From NCBI GenBank assembly GCA_050293845.1, contig JBNKNM010000191.1, positions 1-11,060 on the forward strand: a stretch of 11,060 nt of DNA, read 5' to 3'. Below the pieces are notes generated by a model, which saw only the letters and a list, made by a program, of their open reading frames with translations, was not told where the DNA came from and ran no database searches. Position numbers and translations under genes: made by a program. This DNA comes from Pseudobacteriovorax sp. (GTDB lineage Bacteria; Bdellovibrionota_B; Oligoflexia; Oligoflexales; Oligoflexaceae). Each line of letters begins with the position of its first letter. The first letter of the stretch is position 1. Below are positions 222 through 10,809 of the stretch, piece by piece.

Positions 222-1757
222 TTGCAGTATATTGACATGGGCGATTTTTTAAGAAAGCGATCACTCTCCTATAGGCTATCACTAGGTATCCTAATTGGAA
301 GCTCTATTATCACATTTTGTTTTAGCGTTGTAACCCTCTATTGGGATTATCGAACCGAGCTTCGCCAGATCGAGCAAACCCTGGATCAAGTACAATCTTT
401 ATACCTAGAGAGTATCAGTCAAAATCTTTGGAACATGAATGACGAAAGCATCAAGTTAAACCTGCAGAGTATTACCAGTTTAGGCGATATAAACTATGCT
501 CATATTTTGATTCAAGATAAAATAGTCTATTCTTCAGGGGATAAACTACCTCCTTCCAACCAGCAAAAAAAAATCTTCTCCATCAATTATCATCGTGATG
601 GTCGTAATTACCATTTAGGCGATCTTGTCGTTTCCGCAGATCTTGGCGGTGCTTACACACGATTACAAGAAGAAGTTCTGTACGAATTTGCCACTTCTTT
701 CTGTAAAACCCTTATTCTCTTACTTTTTATCCTAGCTTTTTTCCATAAGCTCGTAACCAGACACTTGATTCATATCGCTCACTATCTGTCTGAGTTTTCG
801 CCATCTACTAAAGATTTAGCGCTCTTCCGTAGGCCAGGAATCAGCGATGAGCTTACCATGGTGGTTAATGCAATCTCAAGAATGAAGCATGAGATAAATG
901 ACCAGCTGAGTAAACGACTGGAAGCTGAAGAGCAGCTAAAAGCTCTCAATATCAGCTTAGAGGCTGAAGTAAAAAAAAGAATCAAAGAAAATGAGCTTCA
1001 GCAAATGGCCATAGAAAGCACTGCTCGCCTCTCATCCTTGGGTGAAATGGCTGGTGGTGTCGCCCACGAAATCAATAACCCCCTAACAATTATTTATGGA
1101 TATGTAACCATGCTCCGTAAAGCGGTGGACAACAACAGTTTGAGCCCTGCAAAAATTGACCTGATCGTAGAAAAGATTGAAGTGACAGTCGATCGTATCA
1201 CGCAAACCATCGAAGGCTTACTCCGTCTGGCGCAAAACCAATGCGAAAGCCCTCCCCAAGTCCACTCCCTGAGCCTCATTATTAGAGACATATTGGCCAT
1301 CAGTCGGGAAAAGTTTACCCGCAGTGGTATAGAGATAAAACTAGATATCCCTGACTATGAAATAAAGGCTCCCTGTCAGCCGGCGGAAATTGGACAAATT
1401 CTGATTAACCTCCTTAATAACGCCTACTATGAAATTAAAGATAGGGGATCTCCTTGGGTAAAAATCACCCTAAAGGATACCCCCGATAACATGGCTGAAA
1501 TTGCTATTATAGATTCGGGTCCAGGGATAGAGACCAAAATACGAAGTAAAATTCTAAAGCCGTTCTTTACAACAAAGCCTCCGGGTAAAGGAGCGGGGCT
1601 TGGGCTTAGTATTTCCCAAGCTATCGCCCAAGGTCACCACGGGCAGCTTTATTTAGATGAATCTAGCAAACATACACGCTTTGTGCTCGCACTGCCTGCA
1701 GATATCTCAGCCATTCATTCCCCCCACAGTTTGTCCAATCAATTAAGCTTTCATTAG
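222..1757 (+). CDS. Membrane-bound sensor histidine kinase (2 TM, periplasmic sensor, HAMP-like/coiled-coil linker, HisKA, HATPase_c; NtrB/AtoS-like class)
   Basis: Two hydrophobic segments (LSLGILIGSSIITFCFSVVTLY; TLILLLFILAFF) flank a ~110-aa periplasmic region; DEL..VVNAISRM HAMP-like; H-box GEMAGGVAHEINNPL (His codon at 1065); N-box QILINLLNNA; G1 DSGPGI; F-box PFFTTK; G2 GKGAGLGL. Start may be TTG 222 or ATG 237. Confidence 0.95.
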   Translation: MQYIDMGDFLRKRSLSYRLSLGILIGSSIITFCFSVVTLYWDYRTELRQIEQTLDQVQSLYLESISQNLWNMNDESIKLNLQSITSLGDINYAHILIQDKIVYSSGDKLPPSNQQKKIFSINYHRDGRNYHLGDLVVSADLGGAYTRLQEEVLYEFATSFCKTLILLLFILAFFHKLVTRHLIHIAHYLSEFSPSTKDLALFRRPGISDELTMVVNAISRMKHEINDQLSKRLEAEEQLKALNISLEAEVKKRIKENELQQMAIESTARLSSLGEMAGGVAHEINNPLTIIYGYVTMLRKAVDNNSLSPAKIDLIVEKIEVTVDRITQTIEGLLRLAQNQCESPPQVHSLSLIIRDILAISREKFTRSGIEIKLDIPDYEIKAPCQPAEIGQILINLLNNAYYEIKDRGSPWVKITLKDTPDNMAEIAIIDSGPGIETKIRSKILKPFFTTKPPGKGAGLGLSISQAIAQGHHGQLYLDESSKHTRFVLALPADISAIHSPHSLSNQLSFH

Positions 1758-1884: not shown

Positions 1885-2562
1885 ATGACTGATGCAAAAT
1901 CTTATTGGGAGCGATACTACGCTGAAAATAAATTTTTAAATGGCAAAGAACCAAACGCCTTCCTTGTCAAAATGCTTCCGCGTATGCAGAAAGGTAAGGT
2001 TCTGGATGTAGCCATGGGTGAAGGCACAAATGCTGTATACCTCGCCCAAAAGGAGTACAAGGTTAAAGGCTTTGATATTTCTAAAACTGCCATTGAGAGA
2101 TCTAAATCCCTCGCTCGGGAAACCGGAGTAGATATCGATGCAAATTTTGCCGACTTGGACTTGTTCTTGATGGGATTGCTGGAGTATGACTCCATTATTA
2201 TGACTTACTTTAAACCCACTGTTACCCGTTACTATAATTCGATCATCAGCGCACTCAAGCAGGGGGGAACTTTGCTGGTTCACTCCTATAGCAATGCAGA
2301 AATGACAGAGGCCATTGGGAAAGGCGAAGGCTACCGCGACTACTTTTTTTCCGCTAATGAACTGCTTCGGAACTTACAAGGTTTGCGCATTTTGTTTTAT
2401 CAGGAAGGCCTTATTGATGGGCATCATGTGGTACAGTGCTTAGCACAAAAACCGGTCGATAAAGACGCTGCAAAGTTAGGAATTTTCGACATGCATACAG
2501 CTGGTCATCGCGGAGAAAAATCAAAGCAATTGGAACTCGCCGAAAAGCTCTTTAAAAAGTAA
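1885..2562 (+). CDS. Class I SAM-dependent methyltransferase (TehB/Methyltransf_25-like)
   Basis: N-terminal YWERYY...GKEPN, motif I KVLDVAMGEGTNAVYLA, motif II VKGFDIS, YDSII, ALKQGGTLL; AGGA RBS at 1872-1875. Confidence 0.9.
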   Translation: MTDAKSYWERYYAENKFLNGKEPNAFLVKMLPRMQKGKVLDVAMGEGTNAVYLAQKEYKVKGFDISKTAIERSKSLARETGVDIDANFADLDLFLMGLLEYDSIIMTYFKPTVTRYYNSIISALKQGGTLLVHSYSNAEMTEAIGKGEGYRDYFFSANELLRNLQGLRILFYQEGLIDGHHVVQCLAQKPVDKDAAKLGIFDMHTAGHRGEKSKQLELAEKLFKK

Positions 2563-2695: not shown

Positions 2696-5600
2696 ATGAG
2701 CAAGGATCTAAAACTTGGTAATCACTTTCTTTCCCAATGCAATACCAGTGCCTCAACGTATCAAGCATTTAAGCAGCTTCTTACACAACTCCAACAAGAA
2801 TCAAGCCGGCTGGAAGCCCATCAGACGTTAAAAGAGCTCCTGCTCATTCATGACTCTACCCTAGACCCCATAGGATTTAGTAAGCGCCACTTTTTTAGCT
2901 TCTATAATATCTCTTTGGCTCAAAATCAAAAACTAAAACTGCTCCAGTTCCCCAGTACTTTTACTCCTGAAGAATGGTCTTTCACATTTTATGAAGGTCT
3001 ATCTCGCTTTCCTATTAACGAATTCACCAACAAGGTCATAACTGAGCTAGGTTGCGGCAACGGATGGGTTTCCATCGCCCTAGCTCAACGTAGCCCCTTG
3101 AGTAAAATATACGGCTTAGATATCAACCCACGAGCTATAACTTGCGCCCAAATCAATGTTTTTCTTAACGGTATGGATGATAGCAGTTCTCCCATTAGAG
3201 ATGGTAGTGGACGCCCGCTATGGGATAAGGTTGAGTTTTATCATAGCGATTTGCTAGAAGCACTTAGGGAACGGAGCATTGGCCTAGACCTAGTTATCGG
3301 CTGTATCCCCCAAGTCCTAGCACCTGACCCTGACGCTCTTCTTGAAATTGTAACCGAATCTGCTTCCGATCAAGAACTGTACGATCTCTCTAATTATACA
3401 GAAGCACACGGATATATAGAAGATCAGTTTGGCCTCGGCCTGATAGCCAAAGCCACTGAAGAAGCTGTCCAGGTTCTTCATCCCAACGGCCGTATGATCT
3501 TTAACTTAGGGGGCCGGCCCGGAACAAAAGTCCTTGAGGGACTCTTTAAGAGGCGTGGTTTTACCGTAAAAAAAATCTGGAGTACACGGGTGGTACAAGC
3601 TGGTGATACTGAAATCGATGCGCTTGTCAAAATTGAAAAGAGCAGCCAGCATCGCTTCGAATTCTATATGGGTCCCAATGCCCAGGAATCTATTTCCGCT
3701 AAAACGGCGCAAGCTTTGCTTGCTGCGGGAGGAGAAATTTCTCACTCATTAAGTGTCTATGAAGCTTCACTCCCGGCCCATGAGCAAGTCGCTAATATAC
3801 TTCGCTTTTTAGCGAAACCGGAACACAAGAGCTTACATGAAGGCCTTGATTTGTCCTCAGAAGATCCTGAAGTCTATCAAGAGAGAGTAAATTTTTTGAG
3901 CCATCTGGCTTCATTTCTTGAAGACCGCAGCGAATTACCTTATGGAGAGACGCAGGGGCACTCAAGCCTGCGTCGGAGCATATCGCTATTCCTGCGAAGT
4001 TACTTCCGTTGCCCTGTCCAAAGTGAAAATATTTTTATCGCTCCTTCTCGGGCTGATGTGATTTCCAATATGATAAAGGTTTATGGGCCACAGGTTATTC
4101 TTTTTGATCAAAAATTACTATATGCGATCCAGGGCGATAGCGGAGTCGGATCATTACAAAATCTGTTTCCACAGATTCTAGAATCTCCCCAGCGTGTTGA
4201 TCTTCTCAAAGAACTCATACATCGCATCCGTCCTGACCTCGTTGTGACCTCCTTGAACAAATTCGAAAATGAATCTCCTGAGTTTTTGCGTCAACTATTC
4301 ATAGCGACGAAAGAATCATCTTCGCGACTGGTGCTAGATATGAGTGACTATTTTGACCTATCCAGTCAACCAACCACAAATGCAGCACTATCCCTTTTAT
4401 CGGAACAACATTTACCTTCTCATGTCACATTGATTTGCGGGCTTGTAAAAAATAAAGTATATGCCGACCTTCATTTGTGCTTTACCATCAGTGAAAATCA
4501 ACCCTTTTTCAATGACATGATTGCTGCGGCAGAATTAACATATAGTCGCGCTCCCCTGTTTACTCAATCATATTACCATAAAATATTTGATGATCTTCTC
4601 ACTTTCCATCTAGCAGATGCGCGGGGACTTGGGGTAGTAGAAAGGCAATTACAAAGTGATCAAAACCATAGTGAACTATCACCGGTTTCCCCCCATGTTG
4701 AGAAGGCATTTTTTCATCCAGCCATTGCAAGAGCAAAACTATCTCTAAATACCGCAACAATAAGATTAGATTATGGAGAAAACATACTTCCTATTCCTCG
4801 CATTCTACAAACCAGCATTTATGAGGCTTTTGTCCGTAGCGATATCTCTCTGACTGACTCGATGGTTAAGGATGAAATAATTCTTTATATGCAAAAAATT
4901 TTCAAAATCTTTCCTAAAGCTGATACTGAAGTATTTCAAGGATCTGGAGTAGCTCCGCTATTTGCCAATACCCTTGAAGGAATTTGTAAACAAGATAGTT
5001 CTCTGGTATTTCCCTCAGGAAGCTATGGAGAGTTTCACGCCACTGCATTATTTTTCGATGTTCCCATTATCAACTGCGAAACACAAGAGAGCAATTTCTT
5101 CAAATACTCCCCTAAGGCTCTACATGAATGCTTAACGGGCAAAAAAAATCCGTGGATTTTCTTGAACGCTCCCTGCGTTAATCCTACAGGAGCTTTATAT
5201 TCATCAGCTGAAATTGCTGAAATAATAGCTATAGCCAAGTCCCATGGTGCGGGTATTATTTTTGATGCCACATTTGCTGGTCTTGAATTTAATCCCAAAA
5301 ATGGGAATCTAGATCTTGATAACTTGTTCGATGACTCCTTCCCTTGGATATTCCTAATTGGGATTGCAAAACTGTTTGCTGCAGGAGGTTTACGGTTTGG
5401 AGCAGCCGTCACGAACTACCCTGACCTCAAGGAAGCTCTTTTTCGCAGCCCCTATCGCCCCCCTCACTTTACTGTTGCCTATGCCGCAAAACAGCTGTTT
5501 CAGAAATTACGATTGGAAAACCCCAACCTACAGGCATCTTTAGGTGAGCAAAGGCACACTCTTTGCAAAAGGGCTCAGCAACTTGAAGTGATGCTGAAAC

Positions 5601-5893
5601 AAAGCGGTTGGCATGTTATAGAACCCCAAGGCGGCTTATTTTTAATAGCCAAGCCAATATACTTTATCGGTAAAAATTGGCAATCTGCAAAAAGCAACGA
5701 AGCTTATACTATTGATAGTCAAAATATTGCCGAAATTTTATTCAAAGAAAAAAACTTACTCATTAACGGTAGCGATTGGACGGGGATCCCTGGATACTGC
5801 CGCTTCGTCCTCTCGGTTGAGCAGGAGGAGTTCGCAACCAGTCTTACACTGCTTCAAGAATTCTATCAGGAATTTAAAGAAAACGAGAACTAG
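2696..5893 (+). CDS. Full-length plant-type methionine S-methyltransferase (MMT): N-terminal MmtN-like SAM methyltransferase plus aminotransferase class I/II-like C-terminal region
   Basis: Collinear motifs that I recognise from plant MMT: PSTFTPEEWSFTFYEGL, ELGCGNGWVSIA (3044-), YGLDINPRA, VEFYHSDLL, GCIPQVL, EDQFGLGLIA, IFNLGGRPG, HRFEFYMG, ISHSLSVY, CGLVKNKVYADL, NPTG, PHFTVAYAAK, WTGIPGYCRF. Length 1065 aa is similar to plant MMT (~1070-1090 aa). AGGA RBS at 2684-2687. Confidence 0.93.
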   Translation: MSKDLKLGNHFLSQCNTSASTYQAFKQLLTQLQQESSRLEAHQTLKELLLIHDSTLDPIGFSKRHFFSFYNISLAQNQKLKLLQFPSTFTPEEWSFTFYEGLSRFPINEFTNKVITELGCGNGWVSIALAQRSPLSKIYGLDINPRAITCAQINVFLNGMDDSSSPIRDGSGRPLWDKVEFYHSDLLEALRERSIGLDLVIGCIPQVLAPDPDALLEIVTESASDQELYDLSNYTEAHGYIEDQFGLGLIAKATEEAVQVLHPNGRMIFNLGGRPGTKVLEGLFKRRGFTVKKIWSTRVVQAGDTEIDALVKIEKSSQHRFEFYMGPNAQESISAKTAQALLAAGGEISHSLSVYEASLPAHEQVANILRFLAKPEHKSLHEGLDLSSEDPEVYQERVNFLSHLASFLEDRSELPYGETQGHSSLRRSISLFLRSYFRCPVQSENIFIAPSRADVISNMIKVYGPQVILFDQKLLYAIQGDSGVGSLQNLFPQILESPQRVDLLKELIHRIRPDLVVTSLNKFENESPEFLRQLFIATKESSSRLVLDMSDYFDLSSQPTTNAALSLLSEQHLPSHVTLICGLVKNKVYADLHLCFTISENQPFFNDMIAAAELTYSRAPLFTQSYYHKIFDDLLTFHLADARGLGVVERQLQSDQNHSELSPVSPHVEKAFFHPAIARAKLSLNTATIRLDYGENILPIPRILQTSIYEAFVRSDISLTDSMVKDEIILYMQKIFKIFPKADTEVFQGSGVAPLFANTLEGICKQDSSLVFPSGSYGEFHATALFFDVPIINCETQESNFFKYSPKALHECLTGKKNPWIFLNAPCVNPTGALYSSAEIAEIIAIAKSHGAGIIFDATFAGLEFNPKNGNLDLDNLFDDSFPWIFLIGIAKLFAAGGLRFGAAVTNYPDLKEALFRSPYRPPHFTVAYAAKQLFQKLRLENPNLQASLGEQRHTLCKRAQQLEVMLKQSGWHVIEPQGGLFLIAKPIYFIGKNWQSAKSNEAYTIDSQNIAEILFKEKNLLINGSDWTGIPGYCRFVLSVEQEEFATSLTLLQEFYQEFKENEN

Positions 5894-5904
5894 CAATTCA
5901 TCGA

Positions 5905-5940
5905 AGAGGGGATACCATTGGTATCCCCTCTATCTTTTTT
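5905..5940. terminator. Intrinsic terminator between convergent MMT and htpG (possibly bidirectional)
   Basis: Perfect 12-bp stem AGAGGGGATACC(5905-5916)-ATT-GGTATCCCCTCT(5920-5931), T-run 5935-5940 on +; lies in the 45-bp gap between the two stop codons. Confidence 0.85.
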
Positions 5941-7861
5941 AAGAGTTTGTATGAGCCATAAGATTTGAAATTTGTTTAGAAAACTTTAATGGATCTTCAA
6001 TGGGAGATCCTTCTGTGAGCAAAGCCTGGTTGTAGAGAATTTCTGCCCATTCTTTCTGTGCATCCTCAGTAAGGCTTTGCATCTTTGTGAATACTGGATG
6101 ATCCGGATTGATTTCCATAATTCGTTTAGATTTAGGAACAGACTGTCCCATAGCTTCCATCATTCTTTCCATCCGCGCAGAAGGATCGTAAGCCCCTGAG
6201 ACTAAGCAGCAAGGGGAGTCAACTAACCGCGGTGAAATTTTAACTTCTTTTACGTTTGCTGCCACAGCACCTTTGATCGTTTCTAAGAGGGATTTATATT
6301 CTTTTTCTTTAGACTTAATATCCTCTTCGTTTTGCTTTTTTTCTTCCTCAGAATCCAGCTCCAAGCCTTCCTTAGTAATACTACGCAAGTGCTTTTCCTG
6401 GTATTGCGTCATAGACTGCATGACCCACTCATCAACAGGATCGATACAATATAAGACTTCATAGCCCTTTTGCTTTAATTTTTCTAAGTATGGGCTACAC
6501 TCCACTTGTTTAATGGATTCACCGGTAATGTAATAAATCTCTTTCTGAGCTTCCTTCATTCTTTCAACATATTCTCTTAACGTTGTTAAGGAATCTGTTT
6601 CATTGGAGTGAAAGAGTGCCAGTTCCTGAAGCTTATCTTTATTGCTAAAGTCATTAGCAATACCTTCTTTCAAGGTGGAGCCAAAGTTCTTCCAAATTCC
6701 CTCGTACTTTTCTCGATCCTTGCTCAGCATTGTTTTAAAGGTTTTTAGAAGCTTAGTTGACAAGGCTTTTTTAATACCTTGAATTTGTTTATCTTTCTGT
6801 AAAATTTCTCGAGAAACATTTAAAGAGAGATCGTTGGCTTCTATCACACCTTTAATGAATCTGAAATGCGGAGGAAGTAGTTCCTCACAGTGATCCATTA
6901 TGAATACCCTATTTACATAGAGAGATAGTCCCCACTTGGTGTCTCGATAATTGTAGTCCATAGGAACTTGGCCAGGAATAAACATCAAGGCCGTAAACTC
7001 TTGAGATCCCTCGGCTTTATAGAATATACGATCAACAGGTGGTACCCAATCATGGGTGACATGTTTATAAAATTCTGTATATTCGTCTTCAGTAACTTCT
7101 GATGGATCTCGCAACCATATGGCTTTACGGCTATTTAGAGTTTCGTCTTCGATAGTAGTTTTGGTTTTACCTTCTATAGGCTTACCATCCTTATCGAGTT
7201 CTGGTTCTTCCTTCGTTACTTCCATTTTTATAGGGAAGTCAATGAAGTCAGAATATTTTTTAACGGTGCTTTTAAGGGTCCATTCATCGGTAAAGTCCTG
7301 AGCTTCGTCATCATCTGGAAATGATTTCAAAAACAAAGTAATTTTCGTTCCCTGACCATCAGTACTTCCGGAAGCTCCTTCGATTGTATAAGAGCCATCC
7401 CCTGCGGATTCCCAGATAACCTTTTCCTGAGAGCCAGCTTTTTGGGTTTCAAGCCTCACTTTATCAGCAACCATAAAAGAAGAATAAAAACCCACACCGA
7501 ACTGTCCAATCAGATCAGGTGAATCCTTAAGTTCTTGAGATTTTTTTAGGAATTCCTTTGTACCAGAACGTGCAATGGTACCGATATTAGTTAAAACTTC
7601 TTCTTCGCTCATCCCTATTCCATTATCTATAATGGTAAGAGTTTTATTATTTTTATCAGGAACCAAGCGAATAAATTTGTCTTCGCCAGAAGTGCTGAGG
7701 TCAGCATTTGCAGCTTCTTCATATCTTAATTTATCTAATGCATCCGAGGCATTAGATATCAATTCCCTGAGAAAGATTTCTCGATGGGAATACAAAGAAT
7801 GTACCATAAGGTCCAGTATTTCTTTGACTTCAGCTTGGAATTGTTTGGTTTCTTTGGACAT
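5939..7861 (-). CDS. htpG: Molecular chaperone HtpG (bacterial Hsp90)
   Basis: FQAEVKEILDLMVHSLYSHREIFLRELISNASDALDKLR, DNGIGM, IGTIARSGT, IGQFGVGFYSSF, LNVSREILQ, EINPDHP. Start placed at ATG 7861 (MSKETKQF, 640 aa) because a GAGGG RBS precedes it; the ORF-track TTG at 7873 overlaps that RBS. Confidence 0.98.
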   Translation of the reverse strand: MSKETKQFQAEVKEILDLMVHSLYSHREIFLRELISNASDALDKLRYEEAANADLSTSGEDKFIRLVPDKNNKTLTIIDNGIGMSEEEVLTNIGTIARSGTKEFLKKSQELKDSPDLIGQFGVGFYSSFMVADKVRLETQKAGSQEKVIWESAGDGSYTIEGASGSTDGQGTKITLFLKSFPDDDEAQDFTDEWTLKSTVKKYSDFIDFPIKMEVTKEEPELDKDGKPIEGKTKTTIEDETLNSRKAIWLRDPSEVTEDEYTEFYKHVTHDWVPPVDRIFYKAEGSQEFTALMFIPGQVPMDYNYRDTKWGLSLYVNRVFIMDHCEELLPPHFRFIKGVIEANDLSLNVSREILQKDKQIQGIKKALSTKLLKTFKTMLSKDREKYEGIWKNFGSTLKEGIANDFSNKDKLQELALFHSNETDSLTTLREYVERMKEAQKEIYYITGESIKQVECSPYLEKLKQKGYEVLYCIDPVDEWVMQSMTQYQEKHLRSITKEGLELDSEEEKKQNEEDIKSKEKEYKSLLETIKGAVAANVKEVKISPRLVDSPCCLVSGAYDPSARMERMMEAMGQSVPKSKRIMEINPDHPVFTKMQSLTEDAQKEWAEILYNQALLTEGSPIEDPLKFSKQISNLMAHTNS

Positions 7862-7899
7862 TTTTACCCTCAAAAATGGAAAAGTTTCTCAGTATCTGA

Positions 7900-8530: not shown

Positions 8531-9622
8531 TTGGGCACAAAAGTCATCGTTAATTCCTTTCAGCAATTAACAATATCTTGTCCCTTATGTGAGATTGAGG
8601 ATACTCATCATAGGATCAAACCTACTTTATATCGAGAAACCAGTCGCGATATCGATCTGCGCCCAAAGTCTGTAGACTGGAACCCCAAAGCCTCTCCCAA
8701 AGTAGATCCCAAAGTATATTTTTTTTGGAAGTGTAATCATTGTCATTTTTGCTCCGACCAAAAGAGCTATATTACTCCCTTTGCAGAAGGTATTATGAGC
8801 GCCGTTCGCTTTAGAAAGCTCTTAAAACCAGCTTTGGAGCAAGATGCGGCCTATATGGAACTGAAAGAACTACTCGCTCCCCAGGACGAAGACAAAACCC
8901 CGCAATTCGTTAAAGCGATGCGCCGCTGTTTTTTGGCCATCTATCAGCATGAGGCTGTTGAGGAAATTGCCATTAAGGAGAGCCTAAAAATTGGCTCTTA
9001 TTACCTCCGGCTCGCATGGATGATACGCGATATCAAAACCTCAAAAACAAAGGCTAATTTATACAAATTGCCCACCCGGGAGTTACTACGTCAAACTAAA
9101 AGGATATGGCCTTCCCTCCCCATAACAGAACTTTCTATTGTCCAACGCGCCATAGAATATTATACCCGTTCGCTCAAACAATCCCATGCCATAAAAACTA
9201 CACTCTCGGAAATCCAAATCAACTTGGTGATTGCTCGTATGTACTTACAAATAGGTGAACTGAAGTCGGCTCACCATCTGTTGCTAGAAAATCGAACCCG
9301 TGCAAAAAATTATGAACTAATCGTAAAACAAAAAGAAAAGTCAGCTAAACAAGGTGATAGTGAGATAGATCAGATGTCAATGGATGCAAGCAAAGCGGTA
9401 AATTCAGTAAGAAACGTGTACCTTATCTACGAACATCTCGATCAAATAAGGTTTAAAAAGGAAGTGGACCAAGCTTTGAAGTTTTTTATACAAGAGGAAC
9501 TTGGCAAAAAGGAAATCACTGAACAGCGGGACTCCCTTAAGAAAAAAGGTTATGAAGAAGAGATCATCGATAAGATTGCCCCTATTCAGAAGAAAAAAGG
9601 GATCTTTGAGTTTTTAAAATAA
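8531..9622 (+). CDS. DUF2225-like protein (N-terminal Zn ribbon plus TPR-like helical domain)
   Basis: CPLC ... RDIDLRP ... VDPKVYFFWKCNHCHF zinc-ribbon pair and YYLRLAWMIR motif typical of DUF2225; TTG start with GAGGA RBS at 8519-8523 (7-nt spacing). Confidence 0.8.
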   Translation: MGTKVIVNSFQQLTISCPLCEIEDTHHRIKPTLYRETSRDIDLRPKSVDWNPKASPKVDPKVYFFWKCNHCHFCSDQKSYITPFAEGIMSAVRFRKLLKPALEQDAAYMELKELLAPQDEDKTPQFVKAMRRCFLAIYQHEAVEEIAIKESLKIGSYYLRLAWMIRDIKTSKTKANLYKLPTRELLRQTKRIWPSLPITELSIVQRAIEYYTRSLKQSHAIKTTLSEIQINLVIARMYLQIGELKSAHHLLLENRTRAKNYELIVKQKEKSAKQGDSEIDQMSMDASKAVNSVRNVYLIYEHLDQIRFKKEVDQALKFFIQEELGKKEITEQRDSLKKKGYEEEIIDKIAPIQKKKGIFEFLK

Positions 9623-10326: not shown

Positions 10327-10809
10327 TCAAAAGGTAAAAGAAAAGAAACTAATATGAAGATTAAAAAATTCTTCTGACATTAAATCGCCCATATTCTCCA
10401 TAAAAAACACCTGGCAATCCTCAGACCGCAAGTCTGCAGATTCAGAATATACAACACGGCTTTTAGGGCTCAAAGTTAACTCGCTTGATATGTTTGCTGA
10501 AGAAAAATCTCCTCCCGGCCATACCATCAGACAGCGCCCTTTTTCAGTCTCTCCTAATGCGCTGTCGCCTCCATTTATCTGTAACAAATCGATCTGCGAA
10601 CGTAGCATGATAGCAGCCAATGCATCCCCACCGTCTCCTTCTTTCAAATCATCCACTTGTGCCACAACTGATGAAAAGGCTAACTGAGTCCCTGCAGACC
10701 CCGCAGCTACTTCTTTCTTTTGAATCTGGGGAGCGCTTTCAAAAATATTGCTTCCACAACTTAGAATCAAGCTAGATAGTACTGCTATGCAAATATATAA
10801 ATGCTTCAT
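10327..10809 (-). CDS. Hypothetical lipoprotein (160 aa)
   Basis: Signal peptide MKHLYICIAVLSSLILS-C18 with lipobox-like ILSC followed by GS; GAGGA RBS upstream (10818-10822, minus strand); two further Cys in the mature part; no family recognised. Confidence 0.8.
   Translation of the reverse strand: MKHLYICIAVLSSLILSCGSNIFESAPQIQKKEVAAGSAGTQLAFSSVVAQVDDLKEGDGGDALAAIMLRSQIDLLQINGGDSALGETEKGRCLMVWPGGDFSSANISSELTLSPKSRVVYSESADLRSEDCQVFFMENMGDLMSEEFFNLHISFFSFTF

What the first reader, a model, noticed from the sequence alone, without database searches (positions are those of the whole stretch)
4763..5893. C-terminal aminotransferase domain of the MMT retains a PLP catalytic motif set
Seen: NPTG (N829), D857 in IIFDATF, GIAK892LFAAGGLR900FG matching the class I/II pattern SxxKxxxxxGxRxG (Schiff-base Lys, phosphate-binding Arg; Lys codon 5369-5371), and R1036 in YCRF (substrate carboxylate). 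From my recollection of plant MMT sequences the equivalent segment lacks this Lys and the domain has no established catalytic role. Inference: the bacterial protein may be bifunctional, methylating Met and then transaminating or decarboxylating SMM (the next chemistry in the methylation route to DMSP), and may represent the ancestral active state.
Basis: partly seen in the sequence, partly recalled or inferred. Interest (0 to 1): 0.75.

Follow-up and report, generated by a model that had tools for sequence, protein, structure and literature searches.

The report
Bacterial methionine methyltransferase with live PLP site
This bacterial relative of the plant enzyme that makes S-methylmethionine still carries a complete vitamin-B6 (PLP) active site that plants have lost, so it probably performs a second, still unknown reaction.

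Summary
ORF 2696-5893 (+) encodes a 1065-aa plant-type ("Group III") methionine S-methyltransferase. Its last 386 residues are a complete class I aminotransferase fold. All five are invariant in 117 of 117 long bacterial-type homologues and K892 in 74 of 74 full-length copies from species genomes.

Seven streptophyte MMTs (Selaginella, Brachypodium, Striga, Kingdonia, Ginkgo, Closterium, Mesostigma) lack the Lys, and the six aligned there lack R900. In a quick tree the plant clade is nested among Lys-bearing bacteria, so the loss is derived.

New here: residues 372-679 are a second, degenerate aminotransferase-like domain. It keeps the Tyr motif (Y416) and the Y616-S617-R618 loop that, in aminotransferase dimers, reach into the partner's active site. 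The C-domain lacks its own such Tyr. Plants lost Y416 and S617 together with K892. A complex model puts both loops at the C-domain's cofactor site (score 0.90, best control 0.00).

The reaction is unknown. The link to DMSP is not supported in general.

The parts
2696..5893 (+). Whole gene: 1065-aa long (Group III, plant-type) methionine S-methyltransferase
   Evidence: ORF list and translation. It is collinear with Selaginella MMT P0136 over residues 10-1056 (40% identity, 775 bits).
2696..3808 (+). N-terminal SAM-dependent Met S-methyltransferase domain (residues 1-371; GxGxG at 119-123, nt 3050-3064)
   Evidence: Pfam methyltransferase families. PDB 7vvv (which I take, from recall, to be the MmtN of Peng et al. 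2022) at E 2.6e-13 over residues 89-354. Of 43 bacterially conserved positions, 40 are kept in all aligned plants and none is lost.
3809..4732 (+). Middle domain (residues 372-679): degenerate class I aminotransferase-like domain without its own PLP set
   Evidence: No Pfam hit. hhalign against the C-domain gives probability 81.5%, E 1.1e-5. AlphaFold2 pLDDT 86.8. Foldseek top hits are all class I aminotransferases (1o4s, 2gb3, 2x5d; E about 2e-10, TM 0.55-0.59, about 270 columns).
3938..3973 (+). P415-Y416-x4-G421-x3-L-R426: the Tyr motif that in class I aminotransferases reaches the partner subunit's PLP phosphate (role recalled)
   Evidence: The profile hit to 2zc0 aligns exactly on this motif (E 5.8e-4). 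Y416 and G421 are present in 117 of 117 homologues. Y416 is C or A in the three streptophytes aligned there. Residues 412-417 lie in the confident modelled interface.
4541..4549 (+). Y616-S617-R618 loop of the middle domain, modelled against the C-domain's phosphate-binding elements
   Evidence: Y616 is present in 111 of 117 homologues, S617 in 115 of 117, R618 in 117 of 117. S617 is lost in 5 of 6 aligned plants. Lowest-error modelled contacts are A753/P754 with T615/Y616/S617 and G898-R900 with A619-F622.
4733..5890 (+). C-terminal complete class I aminotransferase fold (residues 680-1065)
   Evidence: PF00155; PDB profile search; AlphaFold2 and Foldseek.
4769..4783 (+). D692-Y693-G694-E695-N696, aligned on the G-E-P-D-F segment of aminotransferases
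   Evidence: Alignment to 4my5 and 6f77. D692, E695 and N696 are invariant in alignment A1. G694 and E695 are lost in 4 of 5 aligned plants.
4946..4957 (+). G751-V-A-P loop (phosphate-binding loop position)
   Evidence: G751 is invariant and lost in 5 of 6 aligned plants. It aligns on G-G-K-Q of 6f77. It lies in the modelled interface.
5024..5026 (+). Y777, at the position of the aromatic residue that stacks on the PLP ring (role recalled)
   Evidence: Present in 117 of 117 homologues. Aligns on the Trp of P-Y-W in 6f77. It is Asn in 5 of 6 aligned plants.
5180..5191 (+). N829-P-T-G
   Evidence: (N829 117 of 117).
5264..5275 (+). D857-A-T-F860: Asp for the pyridine N; Phe where aminotransferases have Tyr
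   Evidence: D 117 of 117; F 116 of 117. In the printed alignments to 4my5, 8fft, 1dju and 6f77, F860 lies on Tyr.
5360..5401 (+). G889-I-A-K892-x5-G-x-R900-x-G902: Schiff-base Lys and phosphate Arg
5801..5803 (+). R1036, the alpha-carboxylate Arg position
   Evidence: Present in 117 of 117 homologues. Aligns on the Arg of 6f77. Kept in the plants aligned there.
5905..5931 (+). Terminator-like hairpin (12 pairs, then a T run) between the MMT stop and the convergent htpG
   Evidence: The number of such sites in the region is not above shuffles, so this is a pattern match only.

Best explanation
The gene encodes a three-part enzyme.

1. Residues 1-371 are the Met S-methyltransferase that makes S-methylmethionine (SMM) from Met and SAM. 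This is inferred from homology to MmtN and plant MMT.
2. Residues 372-679 and 680-1065 are two aminotransferase-type domains in one chain. They pack against each other like the two subunits of a class I aminotransferase dimer.
3. Only the C-terminal one has a cofactor site: K892 for the Schiff base, D857, N829, R900, and R1036 for the substrate carboxylate.
4. That site is completed across the interface by the middle domain's Y416 and its Y616-S617-R618 loop. The module therefore has one live PLP site and one dead one.
5. In bacteria this site is under strong constraint and is functional. In the plant lineage it decayed, and the module was kept for a non-catalytic role.

Shown here: the residues, their alignment on solved enzymes, their conservation, their joint loss in plants, both folds, and a modelled interface.

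Inferred: PLP binding, and the chemistry. My best guess for the chemistry (about 0.35-0.4 on its own) is transamination of a Met-family amino acid, either Met/4-methylthio-2-oxobutanoate or SMM/4-dimethylsulfonio-2-oxobutanoate. The reason is that the nearest solved relatives are aminotransferases.
For: - Residue identity and alignment on the catalytic residues of solved enzymes.
- K892, N829, D857, R900, R1036 and Y777 are each present in 117 of 117 long homologues, which are only 35-50% identical to the window protein.
- K892 is present in 219 of 232 C-domain hits and in 74 of 74 full-length copies from species genomes.
- The C-domain is a full aminotransferase fold (pLDDT 95.4; TM about 0.8).
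- The middle domain is an aminotransferase-like fold.
- The C-domain has no Tyr at the cross-subunit Tyr position, while the middle domain has the full motif.
- Among 200 proteins of 900 aa or more, Y416, R618 and K892 occur together in 182. Fourteen lack both Y416 and K892. Three have K without an aligned Y416, and one has Y without K.
- An unbiased scan took 69 positions that are at least 95% conserved in 181 bacterial-type rows. In the methyltransferase domain plants lose 0 of 43, in the C-domain 6 of 21, in the middle domain 2 of 5. The eight lost positions are Y416, S617, G694, E695, G751, Y777, K892 and R900.
- Complex model of the middle domain with the C-domain, PLP riding along: ipSAE 0.90 in three runs, best of 3 controls 0.00. 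That mark was reached by 116 of 157 solved complexes and 2 of 215 mismatched pairs. The runs share at least 91% of contacts and the partner's pLDDT is at least 82. The interface includes residues 412-417 and 613-623 of the middle domain, against A753/P754 and G898-R900 of the C-domain.
Against: - No experiment shows PLP binding or any second activity in any MMT.
- F860 replaces the Tyr that aminotransferases use at this position. By recall, that Tyr hydrogen-bonds the cofactor O3', and replacing it with Phe in aspartate aminotransferase greatly slows catalysis.
- The window has Ala at K-1, where most homologues have Ser.
- The complex model may pass from memory, because aminotransferase homodimers are abundantly solved. 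The calibration held no riding ligand and did not use my own alignments. A homodimer of C-domains was not tested.
- The joint loss of Y416 and K892 rests on very few independent events: one in streptophytes, perhaps Mastigella, perhaps P0195.
- R618 itself is kept in Selaginella and Closterium.
- Placing the Y616-R618 loop at the position of the cross-subunit Arg/Ser loop of aspartate aminotransferase rests on secondary-structure order and chained alignments, not on superposition.
Confidence: 0.6

Rival explanations
1. The PLP site is catalytic but is not a transaminase. It exploits the sulfonium leaving group or the carboxylate of SMM made by the first domain. Options are gamma-elimination or cyclisation as in ACC synthase (releasing dimethyl sulfide), or decarboxylation to DMSP-amine. 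The last is the reader's DMSP-route reading.
For: - ACC synthases have the same fold, act on the sulfonium amino acid SAM, and score nearly as well as aminotransferases (E about 5e-24 against 1.8e-29).
- The best NCBIfam hit and an early fold hit is GntC, a non-transaminase PLP enzyme.
- A threonine-phosphate decarboxylase-like enzyme also appears among the PDB hits (6oux).
- The invariant Phe at 860 shows a site tuned differently from ordinary transaminases.
- Fusion to an SMM-forming domain suggests consecutive steps.
- The window protein groups with Pseudobacteriovorax, the one DMSP producer.
Against: - No family-specific signature was found. All NCBIfam scores lie far below their cut-offs (68 bits against 415 for GntC).
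- Only 1 of 4 tested bacteria with this MMT made DMSP.
- No downstream DMSP gene is conserved nearby.
- An invariant Arg in the cross-domain loop (R618) would repel a cationic sulfonium side chain. It fits a carboxylate co-substrate better (inference).
Confidence: 0.2
2. The PLP site binds the cofactor and a ligand but does not turn over. It would act as a sensor that tunes the methyltransferase, as in GabR/MocR regulators, where an aminotransferase-like domain forms an external aldimine with the effector (recalled).
For: - Plants keep the whole module after losing the catalytic residues, so the module has a role beyond catalysis.
- Phe at 860 would be expected to slow catalysis (recalled).
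- GabR (4n0b) appears among the structural neighbours of the middle domain.
Against: - Every residue needed for chemistry is invariant across deep bacterial divergence, including the carboxylate Arg.
- If sensing were the role, its complete loss in plants with retention of the module needs a second explanation.
Confidence: 0.13
3. The domain no longer binds PLP in bacteria either. The conserved residues serve folding or domain packing only.
For: F860 for Tyr, Ala at K-1 in the window, and a G-V-A-P loop where aminotransferases usually have Ser or Thr for the phosphate. No published second activity turned up in 8 literature searches.
Against: - A Lys, two Arg, an Asp and an Asn are invariant at exactly the cofactor and substrate positions in at least 181 sequences of 28-50% identity.
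- All of these except Asp857, Arg1036 and mostly Asn829 were replaced in plants while the fold was kept. This is what relaxed selection on a formerly functional site looks like.
Confidence: 0.07

Closest known systems
Plant methionine S-methyltransferase (MMT, EC 2.1.1.12), e.g. Selaginella moellendorffii XP_024516277.1 (P0136) and Brachypodium KQK12958.1 (P0270)
   Same: Same three-part architecture and collinear alignment over residues 10-1056 (40% identity to Selaginella). The methyltransferase domain is conserved position for position: 40 of 43 conserved positions are kept in all aligned plants. F860, D857 and R1036 are shared.
   Different: Plants have replaced K892 (T, L, F, F, F, P, Q), R900, Y777, G751, G694/E695, Y416 and S617. 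The window protein keeps all of them.
Bacterial 'Group III' MMT of Peng et al. 2022 (PMC9135737) and Williams et al. 2019 (cited there, not read), e.g. Pseudobacteriovorax antillogorgiicola (P0003)
   Same: The window protein belongs to this group. It is 51% identical to P0003 (tree output) and groups with it at SH-aLRT 99. The two-domain, plant-like build is already in print.
   Different: The passages I read treat the C-terminal part only as 'an aminotransferase domain' and call the function hard to predict. I found no statement on the intact PLP residues, their loss in plants, or the middle domain.
MmtN, the short bacterial Met S-methyltransferase (PDB 7vvv)
   Same: Homologous to residues 89-354 (E 2.6e-13), with the GxGxG SAM motif.
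   Different: MmtN is about 300 aa and has no aminotransferase-type domains.
Class I (aspartate/aromatic/prephenate) aminotransferases: 4my5, 1gd9, 1dju, 6f77, Thermus 1bjw
   Same: Fold (TM about 0.8 over about 390 columns) and the aligned Lys, Asp, Asn and two Arg.
   Different: Sequence identity is 16-19%. Phe replaces the D-x-x-Y Tyr. The C-domain has no cross-subunit Tyr motif of its own. It is fused behind a degenerate copy and a methyltransferase. It meets no NCBIfam equivalog cut-off.
ACC synthase (1m4n, 1b8g, 1iax)
   Same: Same fold; a PLP enzyme whose substrate is a sulfonium amino acid; E about 5e-24 with the domain profile.
   Different: The match starts at profile position 62, so the N-terminal substrate segment is not aligned. 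No ACC-synthase-specific feature was tested.
Serine palmitoyltransferase LCB1/LCB2 heterodimer and the single-chain viral form (recalled, not checked here)
   Same: A PLP fold-type I pair in which one partner has lost the Lys and serves only to complete the other's single active site. In the viral enzyme both lie in one chain.
   Different: A different subfamily and reaction. The likeness is one of design only.

Membership tests
Long (Group III, plant-type) methionine S-methyltransferase | N-terminal SAM methyltransferase domain homologous to MmtN, with the GxGxG motif | tested here: met
   PDB 7vvv at E 2.6e-13 over residues 89-354. G119, G121 and G123 are invariant. Pfam methyltransferase hits.
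Long (Group III, plant-type) methionine S-methyltransferase | Full-length collinearity with plant MMT (about 1050-1100 aa, methyltransferase plus aminotransferase-like region) | tested here: met
   Selaginella MMT P0136: 775 bits, 40% identity, residues 10-1056 on 14-1083.
Long (Group III, plant-type) methionine S-methyltransferase | Met + SAM gives SMM + SAH | not testable with these tools
   Inferred from homology only.
Class I/II aminotransferase fold (Pfam PF00155) | Score above Pfam's gathering cut-off | tested here: met
   64.5 bits against 19.7; 65.4 bits for the domain alone.
Class I/II aminotransferase fold (Pfam PF00155) | Complete large and small domain fold | tested here: met
   AlphaFold2 pLDDT 95.4. 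Foldseek: 1gd9 E 1.2e-24, TM 0.81, 393 columns.
Catalytically competent class I aminotransferase | Schiff-base Lys, Asp to the ring N, Asn to O3', Arg to the phosphate, Arg to the substrate carboxylate | tested here: met
   K892, D857, N829, R900 and R1036 align on these residues of 4my5 and 6f77. Each is present in 117 of 117 homologues. The roles are taken from established knowledge of the family.
Catalytically competent class I aminotransferase | Tyr of D-x-x-Y that hydrogen-bonds the cofactor O3' | tested here: not met
   F860; Phe in 116 of 117 homologues. Tyr in all four solved enzymes whose alignments were printed.
Catalytically competent class I aminotransferase | Tyr from the partner subunit reaching the phosphate (Y-x4-G-x3-L-R motif) | tested here: inconclusive
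   Absent from the C-domain. Present and invariant in the middle domain (Y416) and in the modelled interface. Contact with PLP itself was not reported by the tool.
Catalytically competent class I aminotransferase | PLP bound; amino-group transfer | not testable with these tools
   Needs spectroscopy and assays.
Any named NCBIfam aminotransferase or PLP equivalog (GntC, AspAT, HisC, CobD, VioD and others) | Score above the curated cut-off | tested here: not met
   The best hit is GntC at 68.2 bits against 415. All 25 listed families score far below their cut-offs.
ACC synthase | Family-specific substrate residues and activity on a sulfonium amino acid | not tested
   Only general fold and sequence similarity was seen (E about 5e-24).
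Bacterial DMSP methylation-pathway cluster | Linkage to downstream genes (decarboxylase, amine aminotransferase or oxidase, aldehyde dehydrogenase) | tested here: not met
   No such neighbour in the window. In 81 loci the commonest neighbour family occurs in 19, has no Pfam match, and is confined to one group of loci. This agrees with Peng et al. 2022.

The most novel reading that the evidence does not exclude
The long bacterial MMT is a single-chain, two-step machine. It makes SMM and then processes the sulfonium amino acid at a PLP site built from two fused aminotransferase-type domains. The second step could give 4-dimethylsulfonio-2-oxobutanoate or DMSP-aldehyde, or it could release dimethyl sulfide directly by gamma-elimination. 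That would define an unrecognised organosulfur route. The gene occurs in at least 213 bacterial species genomes, including freshwater and soil lineages. It would also explain the plant MMT C-terminal region as the fossil of that second enzyme.
Probability: 0.2. Interest if true: 0.85.

Novelty: new variant of a known kind. Interest (0 to 1): 0.66.

Why it matters
Plant MMT has carried an unexplained aminotransferase-like region since it was cloned, and bacterial long MMTs are called hard to interpret (Peng et al. 2022, passages read).

The results here turn that puzzle into a direct experiment:
- The bacterial proteins keep every cofactor residue and plants have lost exactly those.
- The region is really two aminotransferase-type domains that seem to share one site.
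- K892, Y416 and R618 are obvious mutational targets.

If the site is catalytic, a family found in at least 213 species genomes has a second, unassigned reaction next to SMM synthesis. The family spans Bdellovibrionota, Kangiellaceae, cyanobacteria, Acidobacteriota, Bacteroidota and Myxococcota. This bears on where SMM, DMSP and possibly dimethyl sulfide come from outside the sea.

It is also a clean case of an enzyme domain becoming a pseudo-enzyme after what looks like transfer into the plant lineage.

Tried and rejected
- **Papers not held.** Bourgis et al. 1999 (PMC144290) and Kocsis et al. 2003 (PMC166937) are not held. I could not check whether the missing Lys of plant MMT is already stated there.
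- **Literature searches.** Eight searches and passages of six papers turned up nothing on the PLP residues of bacterial MMT. Williams et al. 2019 is not in the library, and I looked at no supplements.
- **Finding plant sequences.** The first word-indexed search listed only bacterial-type proteins, 120 of 177 hits. A first look-up of 10 distant representatives gave no plant name. Plants were found only after I picked the rows lacking the Lys.
- **Pfam on the middle region.** No hit even at E 10. Its nature came from hhalign, a PDB profile search and the fold.
- **Conserved neighbours as a clue to the reaction.** None was general.
- **NCBIfam equivalogs.** None reached its cut-off.
- **Own genome.** There is no second copy of any of the three domains. 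A homocysteine S-methyltransferase/MTHFR fusion and a MetH-like frame exist. These allow an SMM cycle but do not point to the PLP reaction.
- **The G-E-N segment.** I considered it as an ACC-synthase-type sulfonium-binding signature and rejected it. It aligns on the ordinary G-E-P of aminotransferases.
- **Mapping R618.** I tried to map R618 residue for residue onto the cross-subunit Arg of aspartate aminotransferase. Chained alignments place it in the same loop but about two residues off, so I claim only the loop.
- **Slips and queues.** Script one search failed on an index and was corrected. The complex job was turned back four times by a full queue before it ran.
- **Earlier notes.** A look-up near this place found nothing.


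Full report
**What is in the window**

The window is a whole 11,060-base contig (C191) of a 6.68-Mb draft genome with 41% G+C. ORF 2696-5893 (+) encodes 1065 residues. Its neighbours are:
- a CHASE5 histidine kinase (222-1757);
- a small TehB-like SAM methyltransferase (1885-2562);
- a convergent htpG (5939-7873, minus strand);
- a DUF2225 protein (8531-9622).

A terminator-like hairpin (5905-5931) follows the stop codon.

**Checking the observation**

- Pfam places PF00155 on residues 737-984 (64.5 bits, cut-off 19.7).
- In alignments to solved enzymes, K892 falls on the Schiff-base Lys, N829 on the N-P-T/S-G Asn, D857 on the D-x-x-Y Asp, R900 on the G-x-R-x-G Arg, and R1036 on the C-terminal carboxylate Arg.
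- An AlphaFold2 model of residues 680-1062 (72-row alignment, pLDDT 95.4) matches class I aminotransferases over about 390 columns. The hits include 1gd9, 6f77, 4my5 and 1dju, with TM 0.78-0.84 and E about 1e-24 to 1e-23.

K-3 is Gly and K-1 is Ala, not Ser. The Tyr of D-x-x-Y is Phe (F860).

**Conservation in bacteria**

A search with residues 690-1065 found 177 proteins at E of 1e-5 or better, of which 120 were listed. I dropped 3 that were shorter than 900 aa and aligned the remaining 117.
- K892, N829, D857, R900, R1036 and Y777 are each present in 117 of 117.
- F860 is present in 116 of 117.
- These proteins are only 35-50% identical to the window protein in this region.

A scan of one genome per species found 213 genomes with a relative, and 80 loci were kept. 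All 74 full-length copies (73 loci plus the window) have the Lys.

The hosts, by record title, are Bdellovibrionota/Oligoflexia, Kangiellaceae, cyanobacteria such as Xenococcus and Waterburya, Acidobacteriota, Bacteroidota, Myxococcota and Sericytochromatia. Within the window's own family the gene is patchy: a full-length copy occurs in 3 of 30 relatives searched.

**Plants**

A full-library search with the whole protein gave 158 representatives at E of 1e-30 or better, and 150 were listed. I aligned every protein in hand that had a C-domain hit, 232 of 262. Of these, 219 have Lys at column 892.

The exceptions with good alignments turned out, on name look-up, to be streptophytes:

| Organism | Residue at 892 | Residue at 900 |
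|---|---|---|
| Selaginella | T | E |
| Brachypodium | L | D |
| Striga | F | S |
| Kingdonia | F | A |
| Ginkgo | F | E |
| Closterium | P | Q |
| Mesostigma | Q | Q |

Mesostigma aligns only over part of the domain (79 bits), and the stricter full-length alignment does not align it at these columns.

Other rows that do not fit:
- Mastigella (an amoebozoan transcript, partial alignment) has Ser.
- Three unnamed metagenomic proteins (P0195, P0247, P0237) align weakly.
- A rotifer protein (Rotaria) keeps the whole set.

**Direction of change**

I built a quick maximum-likelihood tree of 43 rows chosen by hand from the 281 proteins in hand: named taxa plus spread representatives (LG+G4, SH-aLRT only, midpoint root for drawing).
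- Streptophytes form one clade (98).
- That clade sits inside a group with Acidobacteriota/Thermoanaerobaculia and Mastigella (96).
- This group in turn lies inside Lys-bearing bacterial diversity.
- A deeply separate Lys-bearing clade (28-33% identity) sits on the other side of the midpoint.

The loss is therefore derived in the plant lineage. The root and the donor are not established.

**The middle region is a second aminotransferase-type domain**

Pfam sees nothing in residues 301-689. Other evidence shows what the region is:
- A profile of the region aligns to the C-domain profile (hhalign probability 81.5%, E 1.1e-5).
- It hits solved aminotransferases on one motif, P-Y-x4-G-x3-L-R (2zc0, E 5.8e-4).
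- Its AlphaFold2 model (pLDDT 86.8) finds class I aminotransferases as its top Foldseek matches (E about 2e-10, TM 0.55-0.59, about 270 columns).

It lacks the Asn and both Arg, and its Lys-position residue varies (K in 54 of 117, N in 39). It cannot be a cofactor site of its own.

**A shared site**

In class I aminotransferases the Tyr of that motif reaches across the dimer to the partner's PLP phosphate. This is established knowledge of the family, recalled here.
- The C-domain has no such Tyr: the segment aligned to it in 6f77 and 4my5 is variable and shorter.
- The middle domain has it, invariant (Y416 and G421 in 117 of 117), along with an invariant R618 in a Y-S-R loop.

I then asked, without choosing positions, where plants differ from the bacterial consensus. 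The scan used 69 positions that are at least 95% conserved in 181 bacterial-type rows.

| Domain | Conserved positions | Lost in at least two-thirds of aligned plants |
|---|---|---|
| Methyltransferase | 43 | 0 (40 kept in all) |
| C-domain | 21 | 6 (G694, E695, G751, Y777, K892, R900) |
| Middle domain | 5 | 2 (Y416, S617) |

Across 200 proteins of 900 aa or more, Y416, R618 and K892 occur together in 182. Fourteen lack both Y416 and K892, three have K without an aligned Y416, and one has Y without K. These are few independent events, so this is suggestive and not statistical proof.

**Complex model**

The job held the C-domain alignment, a riding PLP, and the middle-domain alignment as the scored partner.
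- The score was ipSAE 0.90 in each of three runs; the best of 3 controls was 0.00.
- That mark was reached by 116 of 157 solved complexes and 2 of 215 mismatched pairs.
- The runs share at least 91% of contacts, and the partner's pLDDT is at least 82.

The confident interface includes middle-domain residues 412-417 (with Y416) and 613-623 (with Y616, S617 and R618). The lowest-error pairs join T615/Y616/S617 to A753/P754 of the G-V-A-P loop, and A619-F622 to G898-R900.

Caveats stated by the tool apply:
- Aminotransferase dimers are well represented among solved structures, so the pass may reflect likeness.
- The calibration had no riding ligand and did not use my alignments.
- I could not test a C-domain homodimer.

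**What it most likely does**

The methyltransferase domain matches the solved MmtN over residues 89-354 (7vvv, E 2.6e-13). It is the part plants conserve fully, so SMM synthesis is the safe inference.

The two aminotransferase-type domains most likely form an intramolecular pseudo-dimer with one live PLP site. That the site is functional in bacteria follows from its invariance and from its specific decay in plants.

The chemistry is open:
- The nearest solved relatives are transaminases, and an invariant Arg in the cross-domain loop would suit a carboxylate co-substrate. I therefore rank transamination of Met or SMM first.
- ACC synthases, which act on a sulfonium amino acid, score almost as well. 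The invariant Phe at 860 marks an unusual site. Elimination or decarboxylation of SMM therefore remains a serious rival.
- A sensor role of the GabR type is the third possibility.

**The DMSP reading**

Peng et al. 2022 (passages read) state three things:
- some Deltaproteobacteria and Oligoflexia have a plant-like two-domain MMT;
- only 1 of 4 strains tested (Pseudobacteriovorax antillogorgiicola) made DMSP;

My neighbourhood analysis agrees. In 81 loci the commonest neighbour family occurs in 19 and has no Pfam match. The next commonest are a cytidylate-kinase-like gene (14 loci) and ribosomal proteins. Judging from their record titles and my own reading of the taxon names, many hosts are freshwater or soil lineages.

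The window's protein does group with that of the one DMSP producer (SH-aLRT 99), so the reading is not excluded for this clade. The own genome has a homocysteine S-methyltransferase/MTHFR fusion, which would allow a plant-like SMM cycle.

**Novelty**

The family and its build are in print. A 2025 review table still lists the enzyme as not present in microbes (PMC12489301, passage read).

I found nothing in print on the intact cofactor residues of the bacterial form, their loss in plants, the second aminotransferase-type domain, or the shared site. This rests on the searches. The two key older plant papers and Williams et al. 2019 could not be read.

My calls reproduce that independently. They add the conservation counts, the plant table, the tree, the middle-domain fold, the joint loss of Y416 and S617, and the complex model.

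Noticed in passing
window 222-1757 (+); also L005, L008, L010, L013, L022, L061, L074: A CHASE5-type sensor histidine kinase lies near the MMT gene in 8 of 81 loci, including the window and one cyanobacterium (Waterburya). In 4 cases it is within 1.5 kb. This may be a regulatory link, or just a common kinase family.
   Followed up: partly
window 1885-2562 (+): A small TehB-like SAM methyltransferase (225 aa) sits 133 bases upstream of the MMT gene on the same strand. It was not a conserved neighbour in the other loci.
   Followed up: partly
P0014 (Rotaria sp., 1009 aa): A rotifer MMT keeps the full PLP set, Y416 and R618. In the quick tree it sits inside a Bacteroidota clade (SH-aLRT 99), which suggests transfer from bacteria to rotifers.
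   Followed up: partly
P0219, P0223, P0226, P0230, P0241, P0259 (about 1500-2450 aa): Much longer relatives carry the methyltransferase and aminotransferase parts behind about 600-700 extra N-terminal residues. P0259 has a further methyltransferase hit near residue 2050. Their origin was not looked up.
   Followed up: no
P0074 (586 aa, on an 83-kb contig): This protein has only the C-terminal aminotransferase-type domain (38% identical) behind about 200 residues with no Pfam family. It could be a free-standing form of the PLP part.
   Followed up: no
G001:C72:83535-86663 (L085): The genome labelled 'same genus' carries an MMT only 49% identical to the window's, no closer than that of another genus of the family (51%). 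This hints at old divergence or exchange of the gene.
   Followed up: no
window 8531-9622 (+) and 10327-10809 (-): A DUF2225 protein, and a 160-aa ORF with no Pfam or NCBIfam match.
   Followed up: no
window 4427-4432 region (K585) of the middle domain: The middle domain often keeps a Lys (54 of 117) or Asn (39 of 117) at the position equivalent to K892, and an invariant Asp (D548) equivalent to D857. These look like remnants of its own former cofactor site.
   Followed up: partly
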